Shown in pieces: positions 2,842-46,220 of a stretch of 64,000 nucleotides of DNA. The stretch's first letter is position 1. Each line of letters starts with the position of its first letter. The notes under the pieces were generated by a model. The model was not told the DNA's origin, did not search any database, and worked only from the letters and a program-made list of their open reading frames with translations. This stretch comes from the human T2T-CHM13v2.0 reference genome, Homo sapiens: NCBI RefSeq assembly GCF_009914755.1, contig NC_060935.1, one strand, 5' to 3'. A program made the position numbers and the translations under genes.

Positions 2842-4280
2842 CTATTTTTTACAAGTTACCCATGATGGGGCCAGCCCAGGCAAACCTCTGAAGGAGATGA
2901 ACCTTAAAGCCTTTTTCCTTATCATTTCCTGGACTAGTGTTGTCCATTTAACTGAGGGTGGCCCAGGTCTGCCTTTGGTTCTTCCAAAGGTCTTCCTTCT
3001 CCCAAACTTACAAATACTTATCCCCAAGGGCTTCAGTTAGTGCCCAGTGCAGGCTGCTAGCCTGGCCCAAGAGTCCTGGCACTGTGCAGAGATGTGTATT
3101 CTGGCTTCCTTCAGCCTTTGAGAGCCTGGTGTGTCCCTGTGCTGGGTGAGCATGCCACATGCAAAAGAGGAATAAGCCACTGGTCTTGCCTTTGAAGAAA
3201 CAAATTTGTAAATAATTTCATTTTAGGGTAAGTGTTATAATAGGTTGACAAAGTGTTGTAGAGTCACTACGCTGAAGGAGGGGGACAATAAAAAATACAA
3301 ATGTGACCAAGGTAGGTCTTGAAGGAGGGCTACAAATTAGGTCAGATTGAAGGGGTGACAGAAGACTGGGCACAGAGAGGCAGGCAGAGACATGGAGATG
3401 CCTGTCATATGTCACGGCTATTGCACAGGATTTGGGACAATGAGGCAGAGATGAAGCTAAGGAGGTAGGTGGGCAGATGTTGGAGGAGTGGCTGTACCTG
3501 CCTTGCTGAGGGAAGCAGGCTGTGTCCTGTTGGTGATGGCTGTTGGCGAATGATTTTAGGCAGGGGAGTAGCGTGACCTCAGATGCTTTTGGTACTTCAC
3601 TTTTATTGTTGATTGCACCTGCCTTGGTTATCCCCTTCCTGCCCCTCTCTAGCTCTGGAGGGCAGGCACTGGGTCTTGCTCACCTCTGGGTGCCTTGTAT
3701 CATCTGGCATAGGACTTTGAAGGAACTAAATACATGCTGTTCCCAGTATCACTCGTCCCCTGGAAACAAATAGCAATGCCTAAATGCTAGAGAGGGTCAC
3801 AGGATCCTTGCTTCAGGTTGTGGGGCAGGCAAGTGGGGGAGAAATTTTAAGGCAGGGTCTTGTTATGGCTCCCAATTCATCTAAATCTTGTATGGCTCAG
3901 AGACTAAATCTTAGAGCTCTTGGCCAAGATCCAAATGCTGTTAGAAATGTCAATTTCTAATAAGACCTTAGACCAATTACTCAACCTCCCTGTGCTTCAG
4001 TTTGCTCATTTGTTAGAGAGAAAATAATTGCACTGCTCTCTCAGGCCTACTGTGAAGATTAAAAGAAGATGCACATGTTTAGCATGATGCCTTGCACATA
4101 CAGTGCACTGAAAAAGCCTTGGTTAACACGATCATATCAAGTCAGCAATGGCCTGTTCCACTTATCCCATAGGAACCCTTCAAAATGGTTTACATATAAG
4201 TGACACTTAAACTTTAGAGAATTCTAGGTTGACATTGAAGGGGAAGGCAAGAGGGTAGGGATAGCATGGTGTAAGGTTAA

Positions 4281-4703
<423 letters not shown>

Positions 4704-6523
4704 TAAGTCACTTAACTTCTGTTAGCGATTGTTCTTCTATAAAATAGAAGTAGTCATATTACCTGCCCCATGCCAAGGAGATAACACATAACACATATAG
4801 CATATTGCCTGGCCCAAGGTAAGATCTCAATTCCTGTTAGCTAATGGTGTGATAATGGTTGGAAGAGAGTTATTATAGTTTTTGGAAAGAATAATCTCCA
4901 TGCCTCTGCCTGCCTCTCTGCACCCCAGTTTTCTGTCACCCCTTCCAGATGACCTAACTTGTAGCCCTCCTTCAACATCTACCTTGGTCACATTTGAATG
5001 TAAGCTTTTATTGTCCCCCTCCTTCAGTGTATGTGACTGTAACTAATATATTGGAAAGGGGAAATGTAATCCTGGAAAAAACTAAACCTACATGTAAAGG
5101 TTGGTGCTGGATCTGTGAAAACTAACTGGGACAGGAGTAGAAGTGAGCTTAGAAAACTGCAGGTAGGGCATGGGCCTGAAAGAGTTTTGTAGGTAGACTT
5201 ATTTAAGTTGAGAACCCCTGTCTGAACAAGGATAAGATTCTTGTAGCTCTATGGAACTGAACAAAATGGAATATTGTTTGCAGAATTGAGTATGACCACT
5301 CTCTGAGCTGCCTTCTTGGAATGGTGGAAGGCTGGTGCTTTTAAATGATAATCTGAAATTTAACCCCTAACACCACCCAACACCACCTGTGACTTTGTAG
5401 AGTCACAGGCACATTGCTAAATCGTTTAGTTTTATCAGCTAGTAAGTAAATATTTATTGGTAGCATAAGCTAGGTGTGGTTCCTTCAAGCTTGAAATATC
5501 CTTCCCTCTGTTTCTGACCCAAGGAATCCTTCTTATGCATCAAGGCCTAGGACAAGTGTCACCAGATTCACCCTCCTAGACTGAAAAAATTAATCCTTGC
5601 AACCTCTCCAATTCCCATGGTGTATTCCTCAAGCATTTTCTTGGCATCGATTTCATCCTGTCTTTATAGTTACTTGTCACAGGATCTGCCACCCCCTACT
5701 AGTTTTAAAGCTCACCCACTTCTGGGACCCCTTCTTTCTCTTGTATTTCTTCTTACCACCTCCATCCTTCTCCCCACCTCATTGATACCCAAAATGACTT
5801 ATACACAATAGGCACTAAATAAATGCTTGATAAGTTGCATTGACAAACAGGTCTCTCATAGTATGCATGTTACAAAGAGCAGCACTTTTGCCACAATGAA
5901 AAAGTAAAAGAACCTTTCTCTTAAAGACATGACTTTGTCTTTAAGCTATGTGAATTTATAACTTCTTAACCACCAGAAATTGTAGATATTGCTAAAATGC
6001 TATATAATTATATCTGGCATGGTAATGTGGTTAGATGACTTATACCAGTTACGTATCAAATGTACAGCATTTAAAACACAATTTAGTCATGGTACTGAGT
6101 CACCAAAGCAAGAATTTGGTTTTTTAAATAATTTGTAAATACTGAATATTCTTTTAACTTTCAAAAGTATAAAACTTTGGCCTTGAATCAAATTGTGTTA
6201 GCAATCTCTCCACAGTCTTTAATAATGCCTTGAACTTCTACAGCTCTTTGTATTTTTCAAAGCCCTTTCACTTTGATTATCTTGTTTGATCTTCATTCAA
6301 CCCTATGATGTAGGAAGCGCAGCTATTAGTGTCTGCATTTTACAGATGAAGATAGGAGGCACATGAGAGGATCAGGCCCTTAAACCAAGGCCAAATTGCA
6401 AATGACAAAGTCAAGGTTAGGACCCACGGATCTACTACACCAGAGGTATTTCATATATTCATGAAAACTGTGGCATCATTATGTATCATCTTTATGAGCA
6501 ACAATCTCATATATTATAATTTA

Positions 6524-41869: not shown

Positions 41870-43035
41870 AAGAGAATATTTTAGTTCATGATTATTTATT
41901 TTTGCAAAACATCTATTTAATTGTTTCAAGTTTGTGAGGAACAAAGTTATTGGACAGGAAGTTGTAGCAAAAATTTTCTATTTCTCAAAAGTAACTGCTG
42001 TAGGTAAAATGTCTGATTTACCAAAAGTTTGAACTGGTTCGCAAAGGCAGTAAGTTCATTCCTAGTTCGGGTCTTTACAAATTATTGTGAGATTTAATAA
42101 TAATAAGACCCTGCAGTTGTTTCTGTTTAGCAATTGCTCATCTCAAACAGGTTCTTTGTGGTTTTTCCAAAAACAGACAGCATATTTGGCTTCTTCTACT
42201 ATAGATACTTTCCTACGTCTATTTCTACATCATTCAACATGGCAAGGCTAACAGAAAATCAAGGTCAAATGAGGAAACTCAGCAAATGGTTTTTATCTGG
42301 CTTCACACTGACCACCAACTGGTAAACACTATAAGAAAAACTGTGCAGGATATAAATGATAGGTAAAAGTACATTTTTTCACTATGGGCCCAGGCTCTCA
42401 TAATAGAAGCAGGCCTAAGATTTAAAACAAATGATGTGGGAATCAATTCAAAGTGCTGAAGAATCACAAATTGCTTTTCTATTTAACTAAAAAATCTCCA
42501 TGCTTTAAAAATTTTCCGCTGGTAGCTTTTTCTCCTGAATTTGCACTCTTAATAATTTTATCCTATAATCCCATCTGATGATGTTATTTTAGGGAAAACC
42601 AGGTTAACAGAAGAACATTTATCAGATGTGTAGATCATAGCAAATTCCTGGCACTTAATAAACACAATACTGATAGACTAAAGGGAGGTTAAAATGAGGT
42701 GGAACACGTAAGTTATCTCTAACAATGATTAATTTTTGTATATTTTACTGATGAGAAAAACTCCTTTAACCAAAAGCTGCTTAATATTTTTATTAACTGC
42801 TTCAGTTCCCTTCAAGTTCTTAATACGTTATTAATATAACACAGCATGAATAAAAAATATGATAATCCATTTTTTAAAAAACAAATTCAAGAATGCCAAA
42901 CAGGTGACTTACGAAGGGAGCAGGGAAGCCTAAAGGGGCCTCATTTCTGTCTTCCTGGGACAAAAGGATAAGTAATTGACTGAAATGTAACTACCAGGAC
43001 ATAGACGCTCCTAGGATGTAAAAGAAAGTTGTCTG

Positions 43036-44373
43036 CCTCCCCCTCCCCCTCTCCCTCTCCCCACGGTCTCCCTCTCCCTCTCTATCCACAGTCTCCCTCT
43101 GATACCCAGCGGAAGCTGGACTGTACTGCTGCCATCTCGGCTCACTGCAACCTCCCTGCCTGATTCTCCCGCCTCAGCCTGCCGAGTGCCTGCGGTTGCA
43201 GGCGCGCACCGCCACACCTGACTGGTTTTCGTATTTTTTTTGGTGGAGACGGGGTTTCACGTGTTGGCTGGGCTGATCTCCAGCTCCTAACCGCGAGTGA
43301 TCTGCCAGCCTCGGCCTCCCGAGGTGCCGGGATTGCAGACGGAGTCTCGTTCACTCAGTGCTCAATGTTGCCCAGGCTGGAGTGCAGTGGCATGATCACG
43401 GCTAGCTATAACCTCCACCTCCCAGCCGCCTCCCTTGGCCTCCCAAAGTGCCAAGATTGCAGCCTCTGCCCGGCCGCCACCCCGTCTGGGAAGTGAGGAG
43501 TGTTTCTGCCTGGCCGCCCATCGTCTGGGATGTGAGGAGCCCCTCTGCCCGCCTGCCCAGTCTGGGAAGTCAGGAGCACCTCTGCCCGGCCGCGACCCCG
43601 TCTGGGAGGTGAGGAGCGTCTCTACCCGGCCGCCCCGTCTGAGAAGTGAGGAGCCCCTCCGCCCAGCAGCCGCCCCGTCTGAGAAGTGAGGAGCCCCTGC
43701 GCCCGGCAGCCACCCTGTCTGGGAAGTGAGGAGCGCCTCCGCCCGGCCGCCTCCCCGTCCGGGAGGTCGGGGGCGCCTCTGCCCGGCCGCCCCTTCTGGG
43801 AAGCGAGGAGCCCCTCTGCCCGGCCGCCACCCCGTCTGGGAGGCGTACCCAACAGCTCATTGAGAACAGGCCATGATGACAATGGCGGTTTTGTGGAATA
43901 GAAAAGGGGGAAATGTGGGGAAAAGATAGAGAAATCAGATTGTTGCCGTGTCTTGAGTAGAAAAAAGTAGACATAGGAGACTCCATTTTGTTCTGTACTA
44001 GGAAAGATTCTTCTGCCTTGGGATGCTGTTGATCTATGACCTTGCCCCCAACCCGGTGCTCTCTGAAACATGTGCTGTGTCCACTCAGGGTTAAATGGAT
44101 TAAGGGCGGTGCAAGATGGGCTTTGTTAAACAGATGCTTGAAGGCAGCATGCTCCTTAAGAGTCATCACCACTCCCTAATCTCAAGTACCCAGGGACACA
44201 AACACTGCGGAAGGCCACAGGGTCCTCTGCCTAGGAAAACCAGAGACCTTTGTTCACTTGTTTATCTGCTGACCTTCCCTCCACTATTGTCCTATGACCC
44301 TGCCAAATCCCCCTCTGCGAGAAACACCCAAGAATGATCAATAAAAAAAAAAAAAAAAAAGAAGAAAAGAAAA
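43036..44373 (+). mobile_element. SVA (B/C-like), short hexamer head and short VNTR
   Basis: CCCTCT-type head, antisense Alu-like domain, gtctgggaagtgaggagc VNTR units, SINE-R ending aaacacccaagaatgatcaataaa plus poly(A). Confidence 0.97.
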
Positions 44374-44987
44374 GGGCCCCAAAGTGACGTCAGCCCCATC
44401 TCAAATTCAAACCCCATAGTAAACGAACAAGATAGACCTTAACTACTGACTAATTCTCCAAAGCAAAAAGTCAGGAAAATAAAAAAATCTCGTTAAGCTG
44501 TAAAAAATAAAAATAAAAATAAAAATACATATCCAGGTACATACTCTTTCTTTCTTTGAGACAGAGGCTCGCTCTGTCACCCGTGCAGTGGCAGTCTCGG
44601 CTCACTGAGATCTCAGCCTTCCAGGCTCAAGCAATTCTTCGGCCTCCACCTCCGAAGTAGCTGGGACTACAGGCACTCACCACTATGCCTGGCTAATTTT
44701 TCGTAGAGATGGGGTTTCGCCATGTTGCCTACGCTGGTCTCAAACTCCTTACCGCAAGCAATCTGTCCACCTCGGCCTCCCAAACTGCTGAGATTACAGG
44801 CGTGAGGGATTGTAGGCGTGAGGGATTACAAGCATGAGCCACCGCGCCCTGCTATATTACTTATTTCTTAAACACCTGCAATTCATTAAAATACACCATG
44901 TATAAATTATAAATCATAATATTATCAAGAACTGTTATTTCTAAGTGCTGAATAAATGAATATTTCCACTCATTAAAAAAAAAAAAA
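44374..44987 (+). mobile_element. SVA 3'-transduced sequence
   Basis: No TSD after the SVA tail; AATAAA at 44951-44956, A13 at 44975-44987; aaagttgtc at 44985-44993 (overlapping the last three As) matches 43025-43033 at the SVA 5' end. Confidence 0.8.
44545..44852 (-). mobile_element. AluJ inside the transduced segment
   Basis: Reverse Alu with a triplicated ggattacaggcgtgag-like unit at about 44791-44838. Confidence 0.9.
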
Positions 44988-45319
44988 GTTGTCCGTTCAA
45001 AGCCAGTGTCAAGTACCAAAAAAAGAAAATTATCTTGCGGCAGATAATGAGAAATAATGCAGGAGAGGAAAGAGGAACTTTAAAGGCTGTACGTGTAGGA
45101 TTTTCTTTTTCTCTCTCGGAGGAAAGAACAGCAAAAAGCGAAGAGTGGGAAATGCTGGACTTAAATTCCTTTCTTTAGGTTTACGAACAAAAAAGGAAAG
45201 CGAGAAGAAAAACAGAATCAAGGACTTATACAGCAGGAAGTTGCCCTGTAAGCATTTAGTCCAGGGACCTGCCATTCTTATTAAGAGCTAAAACCAAAGA
45301 ATTAGTGCACGAAAGTAGA

Positions 45320-46220
45320 AAGAAGACAAGCCGCCATTGTGGAAGGAGCGCAGCGGGACAGAGGCGCGCAGAAGCCTCACCAGACAACCAGGCCCCGTCC
45401 CCGTCCCCCGAACTGTGCGGAAAGCGCCACCGAGTCCAGGCGTCTCATTTTACAGCGGAAGACACAAACTCTGAGATCCAAATGACCTGCTCACGGTCAC
45501 AGCACGAAGCCCGTGGGCCCTGTGTCTACAGTCACCAACTTCCAGGCTTGCGACTAAAGGGAGCCAACGAGCGCGTGAGCGTTTGAGACCAGCTGGCTGA
45601 GGGACGCCGAAAATCCCGCGCGGAGGAAGGCGGGAGAGCGCTACCGCTGCTACCAAGGCGGCGGCGCGGGCGCTCGGCCGGGACCCTTCCCTGCGTCGCC
45701 ACCAGATGGCGCGCTCGGCCCGCCGTTCGCGGCTAAGCTAGGGCGGGTGGGGAGGGAGTAGGGAGGAGGACGTCGGTTGCCTTGGAAATGCAGGGCGCAG
45801 CAGCCGCTGCAGTGGAGCCGGTAGGCCTGGCCGGCGGGCTGAAAGGAAGTGCGAGCTGTCCGCCCAGGGCCGGGTATCCGCCCCTGCAGGCTGTGGAGGG
45901 GATGTCAGGAGACTGGCTGGCCTCTTTTCTTGGCCCCCGACTCCTTCCAGTCTGACACTGAAGACTTTATAAGCTTCCCCCCGACCACCCTCCACGGGCT
46001 CCACTCTCCACGGGCCTGGGCTTGCGCCGCTTCGAGATCAGCCTGGGGGTCGCGCCCTCCTGGTCTTGTCCACGAAGCGCCGTTCTTGGGCCGTTAGGAG
46101 CTGCTGGGAAGGGCTCTGATAGGCCCACTCCTCTTCTCCACCCAGGAGATGAGAAGGAGGGCAGGCCTTTTTAATCTGATCAGAATGTTAACCCATCTCT
46201 CCGCCTTGCGGTAGAACCCC
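45320..46220 (+). promoter_or_regulatory. CCDC83: CpG-island promoter of CCDC83
   Basis: CpG-dense; CTCF-like CCACCAGATGGCGC at 45699-45712; GC box gggcgg at 45741-45746; X-box-like GTTGCCTTGGAAAT at 45776-45789. Confidence 0.8.

What the first reader, a model, noticed from the sequence alone, without database searches (positions are those of the whole stretch)
43020..44995. SVA with an about 600-bp 3' transduction directly upstream of the CCDC83 promoter
Seen: the sequence 5' of the SVA (aaaagaaagttgtctg, 43020-43035) does not recur after the SVA poly(A). It recurs at 44980-44995 (aaaaaaaagttgtccg; 9-bp exact core; differences are one base in the A-run and one CpG/TpG). That copy comes right after AATAAA (44951-44956) and overlaps an A13 tail. 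So the insertion is about 1.95 kb and includes non-SVA DNA containing an AluJ much older than any SVA. Known: SVAs read through weak poly(A) signals and transduce 3' flanks. Inference: hominid-specific foreign DNA was placed about 330 bp from a CpG island, displacing the ancestral upstream region by about 2 kb.
Basis: partly seen in the sequence, partly recalled or inferred. Interest (0 to 1): 0.8.

Follow-up and report, generated by a model that had tools for sequence, protein, structure and literature searches.

The report
SVA carrying two stacked 3' transductions
A full-length SVA retrotransposon just upstream of the CCDC83/SYTL2 CpG-island promoter dragged along two pieces of foreign DNA, one copied from chromosome 16 and one from chromosome 12; this is a well-known behaviour of SVAs, so the locus is a tidy example rather than a surprise.

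Summary
A 16-base target-site duplication (43020-43035 and 44980-44995, 14 of 16 identical) brackets one 1.96-kb insertion. That insertion is a full-length SVA (43036-44345 plus tail) followed by about 610 bases of non-SVA DNA, ending in AATAAA (44951-44956) and an A13 run.

The new result is that the extra DNA is two pieces, not one:
- 44361-44504 copies chr16:2.920 Mb of the same genome (4 substitutions in about 142 nt).
- 44520-44969 copies chr12:10.283 Mb (4 substitutions and 1 indel in 450 nt).

Each piece stops 13-20 nt after an AATAAA present in its source. A perfect (AAAAAT)4 tail remnant separates them. The chr12 piece begins at a TTTT/AAAAA site.

The best reading is two successive read-through (3') transductions, chr16 to chr12 to chr11. 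Neither source site holds an SVA in this assembly, and no sibling copy carries either tag, so both intermediates were probably lost.

A RefSeq alternative SYTL2 exon (44545-44875, minus strand) lies wholly inside the chr12 piece and has AG/GT splice sites.

Stacked ("concatenated") SVA transductions are already described. The orthologous empty site in other primates could not be tested here. Interest is low to moderate.

The parts
43020..43035 (+). 5' copy of the target-site duplication, AAAAGAAAGTTGTCTG. It is preceded by GT, which gives a GT/AAAA L1-endonuclease-like site.
43036..43100 (+). CT-rich hexamer-type repeat at the SVA 5' end. Homology to other SVA copies begins here.
43101..43462 (+). 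SVA Alu-like region (antisense Alu fragments).
   Evidence: inverted Alu matches; 93-95% identity to the 39 other full-length matches (40 of 5591 candidates scored).
43463..43843 (+). SVA VNTR, about 10 units of 37-40 bp, 74% G+C.
43844..44345 (+). SINE-R region ending in the SVA's own AATAAA (44340-44345).
   Evidence: 2675 candidates, 40 scored, of which the 39 non-self copies are 96-97% identical; in the 3 of 5 relatives where the motif was found, the A-tail starts directly at this AATAAA.
44346..44360 (+). A15 run. This is the SVA tail merged with the A-run of the chr16 source, where it is the A22 tail of a young Alu.
44361..44504 (+). First transduced piece, a copy of G000:C16:~2920127-2920270 (minus strand). 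It starts with the end of an Alu A-tail (GAAGAAAAG) and that Alu's TSD (AAAAGGGCCCCAAAG). It ends 20 nt after AATAAA (44478-44483).
   Evidence: 4 substitutions in about 142 nt.
44505..44519 (+). A-rich spacer, part of a perfect (AAAAAT)4.2 array at 44503-44527. Read as the remnant of the poly(A) tail of the intermediate element.
44520..44969 (+). Second transduced piece, a copy of G000:C12:10282901-10283351 (minus strand). In the source it begins at TTTT/AAAAATACAT. It contains an old antisense Alu (about 44547-44852) with a 16-bp triplication also present at the source. AATAAA is at 44951-44956.
   Evidence: 4 substitutions plus 1 one-base indel in 450 nt.
44970..44974 (+). TCATT, five bases between the end of chr12 homology and the terminal A-run. 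Unexplained.
44975..44987 (+). Terminal A13 run: the poly(A) tail, whose last As overlap the 3' TSD.
44980..44995 (+). 3' copy of the target-site duplication, AAAAAAAAGTTGTCCG.
44545..44875 (-). Alternative SYTL2 exon from the hub's RefSeq table, lying wholly inside the chr12-derived piece. On the minus strand it has AG before it (CT at 44876-44877 on +) and GTATGT after it (AC at 44543-44544 on +).
   Evidence: Hub annotation. The same bases are present at the chr12 source.
45381..45555 (-). Alternative SYTL2 first exon in the CpG island shared with CCDC83 (alternative TSS 45751, +). A GT donor is present (AC at 45379-45380 on +). The intron to the exon above crosses the 3' TSD.
   Evidence: hub annotation

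Best explanation
One L1-mediated retrotransposition event inserted a 1.96-kb RNA copy at a GT/AAAAGAAAGTTGTCYG site on chr11. The RNA was a full-length SVA carrying two stacked 3' transductions.

Inferred history:
1. An SVA sat in or against the A-tail of an Alu at chr16:2.920 Mb. Transcription ran past the SVA's own AATAAA and stopped at the next AATAAA, about 120 nt downstream.
2. That RNA was inserted at a TTTT/AAAAA site at chr12:10.283 Mb.
3. Transcription of this second copy again ran past both earlier signals and stopped at an AATAAA 430 nt into chr12 DNA.
4. That RNA was inserted on chr11, 200-330 bases from the CpG island shared by CCDC83 and an alternative SYTL2 promoter.

Both intermediate elements are absent from this genome. 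Presumably they never reached fixation.

Shown: the TSD, the SVA boundaries, the two source loci, and the positions of the signals and tails. Inferred: the order of events, and the former presence of SVAs at the two sources.
For: - TSD: 14 of 16 bases identical, against 0.16 chance matches per window. It lies flush with the SVA 5' end and with the end of the A13 run.
- Origin of the tags: the 173-base query spanning the first tag (44374-44546) and the 251-base query covering the 3' part of the second tag plus flank (44850-45100) each hit only themselves and one other place in the 3.1-Gb genome. The first hit chr16 at 96% and the second hit chr12 at 98-99%.
- Ends of homology: at chr16 it ends at GCTGTAA, 20 nt after AATAAA, and the source goes on without an A-run. 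At chr12 it ends at CCAC, 13-14 nt after AATAAA(A), and the source again has no A-run. So both are sources, not copies.
- A perfect (AAAAAT)4 array lies between the pieces where a tail is expected.
- The chr12 piece starts at TTTT/AAAAA, the preferred L1 endonuclease site. That preference is established knowledge, not tested here.
- The first piece is nominally more diverged than the second (2.8% versus about 1%), as expected if it was copied earlier.
- Stacked SVA transductions with lost sources are documented. 27 concatenated cases were found among 217 transduction-bearing non-reference SVAs (PMC12593883, passages read).
Against: - No SVA lies within the 8 kb (chr16) or 10 kb (chr12) fetched around the sources. 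No sibling SVA carries either tag. The two intermediate elements are therefore inferred, not seen.
- The divergence difference between the pieces is not significant (Fisher p = 0.23-0.26).
- The spacer is (AAAAAT)n rather than pure A.
- Five bases (TCATT, 44970-44974) before the final tail match neither source nor target.
- Junctions at A-runs would also be expected from microhomology-guided template switching.
- The orthologous site in SVA-lacking primates was not examined.
Confidence: 0.8

Rival explanations
1. A single retrotransposition event with two template switches. L1 reverse transcriptase began on a polyadenylated chr12 transcript. At an A5 tract it jumped to the poly(A) tail of a chr16 transcript. 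At that transcript's Alu A-tract it jumped to the poly(A) tail of an SVA RNA. This gives a three-part chimaera without any SVA ever having sat at chr16 or chr12.
For: - Both source sites are empty in this genome and there are no siblings.
- Both internal junctions lie at A-runs, where a T-ended cDNA could re-anneal to a poly(A) tail.
- The divergence of the two pieces does not differ significantly.
- One SVA/processed-pseudogene template switch has been proposed in print (PMC12593883, passage read).
Against: - It needs two rare switches in one event.
- It needs the chr12 RNA to be left at exactly a TTTT/AAAAA site, although several other A-runs inside the piece were copied through.
- A tail-like spacer is present between the pieces. 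The cited paper used the absence of such a tail as its argument for template switching.
- Sequential transductions are far commoner in that data set: 27 concatenated cases against 1 proposed switch.
Confidence: 0.12
2. An ordinary SVA insertion with its own short A-rich TSD right after its tail (AAAAGAAA at 43020-43027 and again within 44365-44373). The 600 bases beyond it would be ancestral chr11 DNA, and the 44980-44995 match would be chance.
For: An 8-base A-rich word recurs right after the SVA tail. Low-complexity matches next to poly(A) are easy to find.
Against: - The A-rich word and everything up to 44504 is shared with chr16, where it is an Alu tail plus that Alu's TSD.
- 44520-44969 is a 99% copy of chr12.
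- Both pieces end at poly(A) sites.
- The word does not abut the SVA 5' end, because GTTGTCTG intervenes.
- The 16-mer match at 44980 is expected 0.16 times per window by chance.
Confidence: 0.02
3. Two or three independent insertions that happen to be nested end to end, for example a chr12-derived retrocopy first and an SVA + chr16 tag later landing exactly at its 5' junction.
For: Each piece ends in its own A-rich stretch.
Against: Only one TSD pair is found, and it brackets the whole 1.96 kb. No TSD brackets the chr12 piece or the SVA + chr16 piece alone. An insertion landing exactly on an earlier 5' junction is improbable.
Confidence: 0.04

Closest known systems
SVA 3' transduction (read-through of the SVA poly(A) signal; Xing et al. 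2006 recalled, not held; described in PMC9311842 and PMC12593883)
   Same: A full-length SVA, non-SVA DNA after its own AATAAA and tail, a downstream AATAAA, a terminal A-run, a TSD enclosing everything, and a traceable source locus without a poly(A) at the end of homology.
   Different: Nothing in kind. This copy has no sibling sharing its tags, and its source sites hold no SVA in this assembly.
Concatenated (sequential) SVA transductions, PMC12593883 (27 cases among 217 transduction-bearing non-reference SVAs)
   Same: One SVA carries tags from two different chromosomes in the order of acquisition, with a tail remnant between them. This implies that an offspring element itself acted as a source. 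The paper also discusses lost, unrecovered sources.
   Different: That set consists of young polymorphic insertions. This one lies in the T2T reference assembly and, from about 1% and 2.8% divergence of the tags from their sources, looks millions of years old. That dating is an inference from few differences.
L1 3' transduction and serial L1 transductions (Moran 1999; Pickeral 2000; Goodier 2000; reference lists only)
   Same: The same machinery and logic: a weak element poly(A) signal, use of a downstream signal, target-primed reverse transcription, and a TSD.
   Different: The carrier is the non-autonomous SVA, mobilised in trans by L1 (PMC3287187, search listing only).
Template-switch chimaeric retrocopies (the SVA-CKS1B pseudogene case in PMC12593883; U6-L1-type chimaeras, recalled)
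   Same: Several unrelated RNAs are joined inside one TSD pair.
   Different: Here a tail-like spacer separates the pieces and the second piece starts at an L1 endonuclease-type site. Both features fit successive insertions better.

Membership tests
SVA retrotransposon (full-length) | Composite order: CT-rich hexamer repeat, antisense Alu-like region, GC-rich VNTR of 35-50-bp units, SINE-R, AATAAA, A-tail | tested here: met
   One search gives the sequence. One search shows a VNTR of period 37-40 with 9.7 copies. One search shows inverted Alu matches at 43090-43340. One search gives AATAAA at 44340-44345 and an A18 run. That this order defines SVA is established knowledge, not a library match. 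No repeat library was available.
SVA retrotransposon (full-length) | High-copy interspersed family whose copies share the same 5' and 3' ends | tested here: met
   5591 candidates. Of the 40 scored, the 39 other full-length copies are 93-95% identical, and most begin at query base 1-3; 2675 candidates for SINE-R, 96-97% identical; tails begin at the same AATAAA in the 3 of 5 relatives where the motif was found.
SVA retrotransposon (full-length) | Subfamily (A-F) assignment by diagnostic positions | not tested
   No consensus library was on hand. Diagnostic positions were not taken from memory.
L1-mediated insertion (target-primed reverse transcription) | Target-site duplication of about 7-20 bp flanking the whole insert, starting at a TT/AAAA-like site, with a 3' A-tail | tested here: met
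   16-bp TSD, 14 of 16 identical, against a chance expectation of 0.16 per window. The site is GT/AAAA. An A13 run is present.
3' transduction | The extra DNA lies between the element's own tail and the terminal tail, inside the TSD | tested here: met
3' transduction | The extra DNA maps to a unique source locus. Homology ends at a poly(A) site there, and the source has no A-tail. | tested here: met
   chr16: AATAAA + 20 nt. chr12: AATAAA(A) + 13-14 nt. Each tag is unique in the genome.
3' transduction | A source element is present immediately upstream of the source DNA | tested here: not met
   No SVA lies in 8 kb around the chr16 site or 10 kb around the chr12 site of this assembly. This is common for older or unfixed sources, so it weakens but does not exclude membership. 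Other human and ape genomes were not available.
3' transduction | An empty orthologous site in species or haplotypes lacking the insertion | not testable with these tools
   No primate genome or second human assembly could be searched. The own genome 'has no relatives here'.
Concatenated / serial transduction | Two tags from different loci in series, each ending at its own poly(A) site, separated by a tail remnant | tested here: met
   The spacer is (AAAAAT)4, a degenerate or expanded tail rather than pure A.

The most novel reading that the evidence does not exclude
The second transduction moved a ready-made, splice-competent cassette from chr12 to chr11. The cassette is a polypyrimidine-AG acceptor, 331 nt including a sense Alu, and a GAG|GTATGT donor. 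There the neighbouring bidirectional CpG-island promoter captured it as a new 5' exon of SYTL2 on the strand opposite to the SVA. If the same stretch is also an exon of a transcript at the chr12 source, this would be true inter-chromosomal exon shuffling by an SVA whose two source copies have since vanished.
Probability: 0.15. Interest if true: 0.45.

Novelty: new member of a known kind. Interest (0 to 1): 0.22.

Why it matters
The locus records in one place how an SVA lineage with a leaky poly(A) signal hopped chr16 to chr12 to chr11 and picked up DNA at each stop. It also shows that source elements can disappear while their offspring survive.

In practical terms, about 2 kb of GC-rich, VNTR-bearing foreign DNA lies 200-330 bases from a bidirectional CpG-island promoter. 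Part of the transported DNA is annotated as a SYTL2 exon. Primate comparisons of SYTL2/CCDC83 5' ends and regulation should therefore treat 43036-44979 as a lineage-specific insertion.

None of this changes what is known about SVAs.

Tried and rejected
- **Own TSD right after the SVA tail.** Rejected. The A-rich word there belongs to the chr16 source.
- **Sibling SVAs with the same tags.** None found. Each tag hit only itself and its source. The first search with all 601 bases was swamped by the Alu (8673 candidates, 40 scored), so the non-Alu parts were searched separately.
- **A paralogous empty site for the chr11 flank.** None. The flank is single-copy.
- **A near-identical parent SVA.** None among the copies scored. 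The best were SINE-R 97% (40 of 2675 candidates scored) and 5' part 95% (40 of 5591 scored). Unscored candidates could hide a closer one.
- **Ordering the two transductions by divergence.** 4 of about 142 against 5-6 of 450 differences, Fisher p = 0.23-0.26. Not significant.
- **Literature for this locus.**
  - 'SVA' + 'CCDC83': 0 papers.
  - 'SVA' + 'SYTL2' + 'retrotransposon': 2 papers. One was read at the passage and is irrelevant. The other was judged irrelevant from its title alone.
  - Supplements of PMC10681720, PMC6139936, PMC3667099 and PMC3024322 were searched for coordinates recalled from memory (hg18/hg19/hg38, approximate). Nothing for this locus turned up. Most of those supplements are held only in small part.
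  - Xing et al. 2006 and Hancks and Kazazian 2010 are not held. Their lists of reference SVA transductions may already include this copy.
- **Earlier findings of this scan.** Closed to the session.
Full report
**1. Observation**

- AAAAGAAAGTTGTCTG lies at 43020-43035, directly against a CT-rich repeat that starts at 43036.
- AATAAA lies at 44951-44956.
- A 13-base A-run lies at 44975-44987.
- AAAAAAAAGTTGTCCG lies at 44980-44995.

With up to two mismatches the 16-mer occurs only at these two places on both strands of the window. The shuffle expectation is 0.16. At three mismatches there are 6 places against 1.51 expected, so only the 2-mismatch copy carries weight. The two differences are a G/A inside the A-run and a CpG/TpG.

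**2. The element**

Tandem Repeats Finder gives a 37-40-bp VNTR at 43463-43843 with 9.7 copies. Upstream of it are inverted Alu-like fragments and the CT-rich hexamer-type repeat. Downstream are about 500 bases that end in AATAAA (44340-44345) and an A-run. This is the SVA architecture. That assignment rests on established knowledge, because no repeat library was available.

Genome searches confirm a high-copy family with the same ends.
- The 5' 435 bases have 5591 candidates, of which 40 were scored. The 39 non-self copies are 93-95% identical, and most begin at query base 1-3.
- The SINE-R part has 2675 candidates, of which 40 were scored. The 39 non-self copies are 96-97% identical.
- In the 3 of 5 relatives where the end motif was found, the A-tail starts right at that AATAAA.

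The 386 bases upstream of 43036 are single-copy. The SVA therefore begins exactly at the TSD.

**3. The DNA after the SVA tail is foreign and comes from two places**

Searching the window's own genome with 44374-44974 found two non-Alu matches.
- chr12:10282901-10283351, minus strand, 99%, covering window 44520-44969.
- chr16:2920127-2920259, minus strand, 96%, covering window 44374-44506.

Searched without the Alu, each tag hits only itself and its one source.

*The chr16 source.* On the relevant strand it reads: young Alu, A22, GAAGAAAAG, AAAAGGGCCCCAAAG, and so on. AAAAGGGCCCCAAAG also precedes the Alu, so it is that Alu's TSD. The window shares everything from the A-run through GCTGTAA, with 4 substitutions in about 142 nt. 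Homology stops 20 nt after an AATAAA, and chr16 continues without an A-run.

*The chr12 source.* Homology begins at TTTT/AAAAATACAT and ends at CCAC, 13-14 nt after AATAAA(A). There are 4 substitutions and a one-base indel in 450 nt. It includes an old antisense Alu with a peculiar 16-bp triplication that is also present at the source. chr12 also continues without an A-run.

Between the two pieces lies a perfect (AAAAAT)4.2 array at 44503-44527. Its last unit is chr12 sequence.

Neither source has any SVA sequence in the 8 kb or 10 kb fetched. Only Alu-type matches were seen.

**4. Mechanism**

The simplest account is two successive 3' transductions.
1. An SVA lay in or next to the Alu A-tail on chr16. 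L1 endonuclease favours such sites (established knowledge).
2. Read-through to the next AATAAA added the chr16 tag.
3. That RNA was inserted at the TTTT/AAAAA site on chr12.
4. A second read-through added 450 nt of chr12.
5. That RNA was inserted at GT/AAAAGAAAGTTGTCYG on chr11.

The tail-like spacer, the endonuclease-type start of the chr12 piece and the poly(A)-site ends of both pieces all fit. The first tag is nominally more diverged than the second (2.8% versus about 1%), which is the expected direction. With so few differences this is not significant (Fisher p = 0.23-0.26).

Taking roughly 1e-9 substitutions per site per year (general knowledge), 1% divergence puts the final insertion a few million years back, with a very wide error. 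No species comparison could be made.

The weak points are these.
- Both inferred intermediates are absent.
- There are no siblings.
- The spacer is not pure A.
- Five bases (TCATT, 44970-44974) are unexplained.

The main rival is a single event with two template switches at A-runs. It needs no lost elements, but it does need two rare switches in one event. I put it at about 0.12.

An SVA-only insertion with an A-rich TSD is excluded, because that A-rich word is chr16 sequence. Independent nested insertions lack their own TSDs.

**5. Surroundings**

Island criteria (GC >= 0.5, observed/expected CpG >= 0.6) are met in 200-bp windows starting from 45200-45250 and continuing to about 45900.

By the hub's table the island carries an alternative SYTL2 first exon (45381-45555, minus) and an alternative CCDC83 start (45751, plus), 196 bases apart. 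That is a bidirectional promoter. The insert is upstream of CCDC83 and also inside the SYTL2 alternative transcript unit.

The annotated SYTL2 exon 44545-44875 (minus) lies entirely in the chr12-derived piece.
- On the minus strand it is preceded by AG (CT at 44876-44877).
- It is followed by GTATGT (AC at 44543-44544).
- The same bases exist at the chr12 source.
- The first exon has a GT donor (AC at 45379-45380).

So transduced DNA has been taken up as an exon in gene models, on the strand opposite to the SVA. I could not check transcript support, or whether the chr12 stretch is an exon at home.

**6. Comparison with what is known**

SVA 3' transduction is textbook for this family (abstract and reference list of PMC9311842; passages of PMC12593883). 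Stacked transductions are also described. PMC12593883 reports 27 'concatenated' cases among 217 transduction-bearing non-reference SVAs. It infers lost, unrecovered source elements. It proposes template switching for one case that lacked a poly(A) between the pieces.

This locus meets all tested defining features of a transduction except one: there is no source element at the source in this assembly. The empty orthologous site could not be tested.

I found no paper naming this copy.
- 'SVA' + 'CCDC83' returned 0 papers.
- 'SVA' + 'SYTL2' + 'retrotransposon' returned 2 papers. One was read at the passage and is irrelevant. The other was judged irrelevant from its title alone.
- Supplement look-ups with recalled, approximate coordinates were empty for this locus.
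- The catalogue papers most likely to list it (Xing 2006; Damert 2009; Hancks 2009/2010) were not readable.

**7. Verdict**

This is a reference-genome SVA with a two-step 3' transduction, chr16 then chr12. It has vanished sources, and a piece of the cargo is annotated as a SYTL2 exon. It is an ordinary instance of a known process with some neat detail. Interest is 0.22.

Noticed in passing
window 44792-44839; L010 about 5030-5077: The old Alu in the chr12-derived piece has a 16-bp unit (GATTACAGGCGTGAGG-like) repeated three times near its 5' end. The same triplication is at the chr12 source, so it predates the transduction. It serves as a fingerprint of the source.
   Followed up: partly
window 44970-44974: TCATT lies between the end of chr12 homology (CCAC) and the terminal A-run. 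chr12 reads GATGAATTAA here. It could be a small rearrangement, a donor-allele difference or untemplated bases.
   Followed up: no
window 44503-44527: A perfect (AAAAAT)4.2 microsatellite lies at the junction of the two tags. Its last unit is chr12 sequence. The intermediate's poly(A) tail may have been reshaped by slippage seeded from the chr12 AAAAAT.
   Followed up: no
L009 about 4270-4575 (G000:C16, minus strand): There is a young-looking Alu with an A22 tail and an intact 15-bp TSD (AAAAGGGCCCCAAAG). The inferred first SVA source must have sat in or beside its tail. The Alu therefore predates the first transduction.
   Followed up: partly
window 45381-45820: An alternative SYTL2 start (45555, minus) and an alternative CCDC83 start (45751, plus) lie 196 bases apart in one CpG island. 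This is a bidirectional promoter arrangement.
   Followed up: partly
window 44545-44852: The roughly 306-bp Alu in the transduced piece does not appear in the hub's list of the longest masked stretches, although shorter stretches do. NCBI's mask may have split it or missed it.
   Followed up: no
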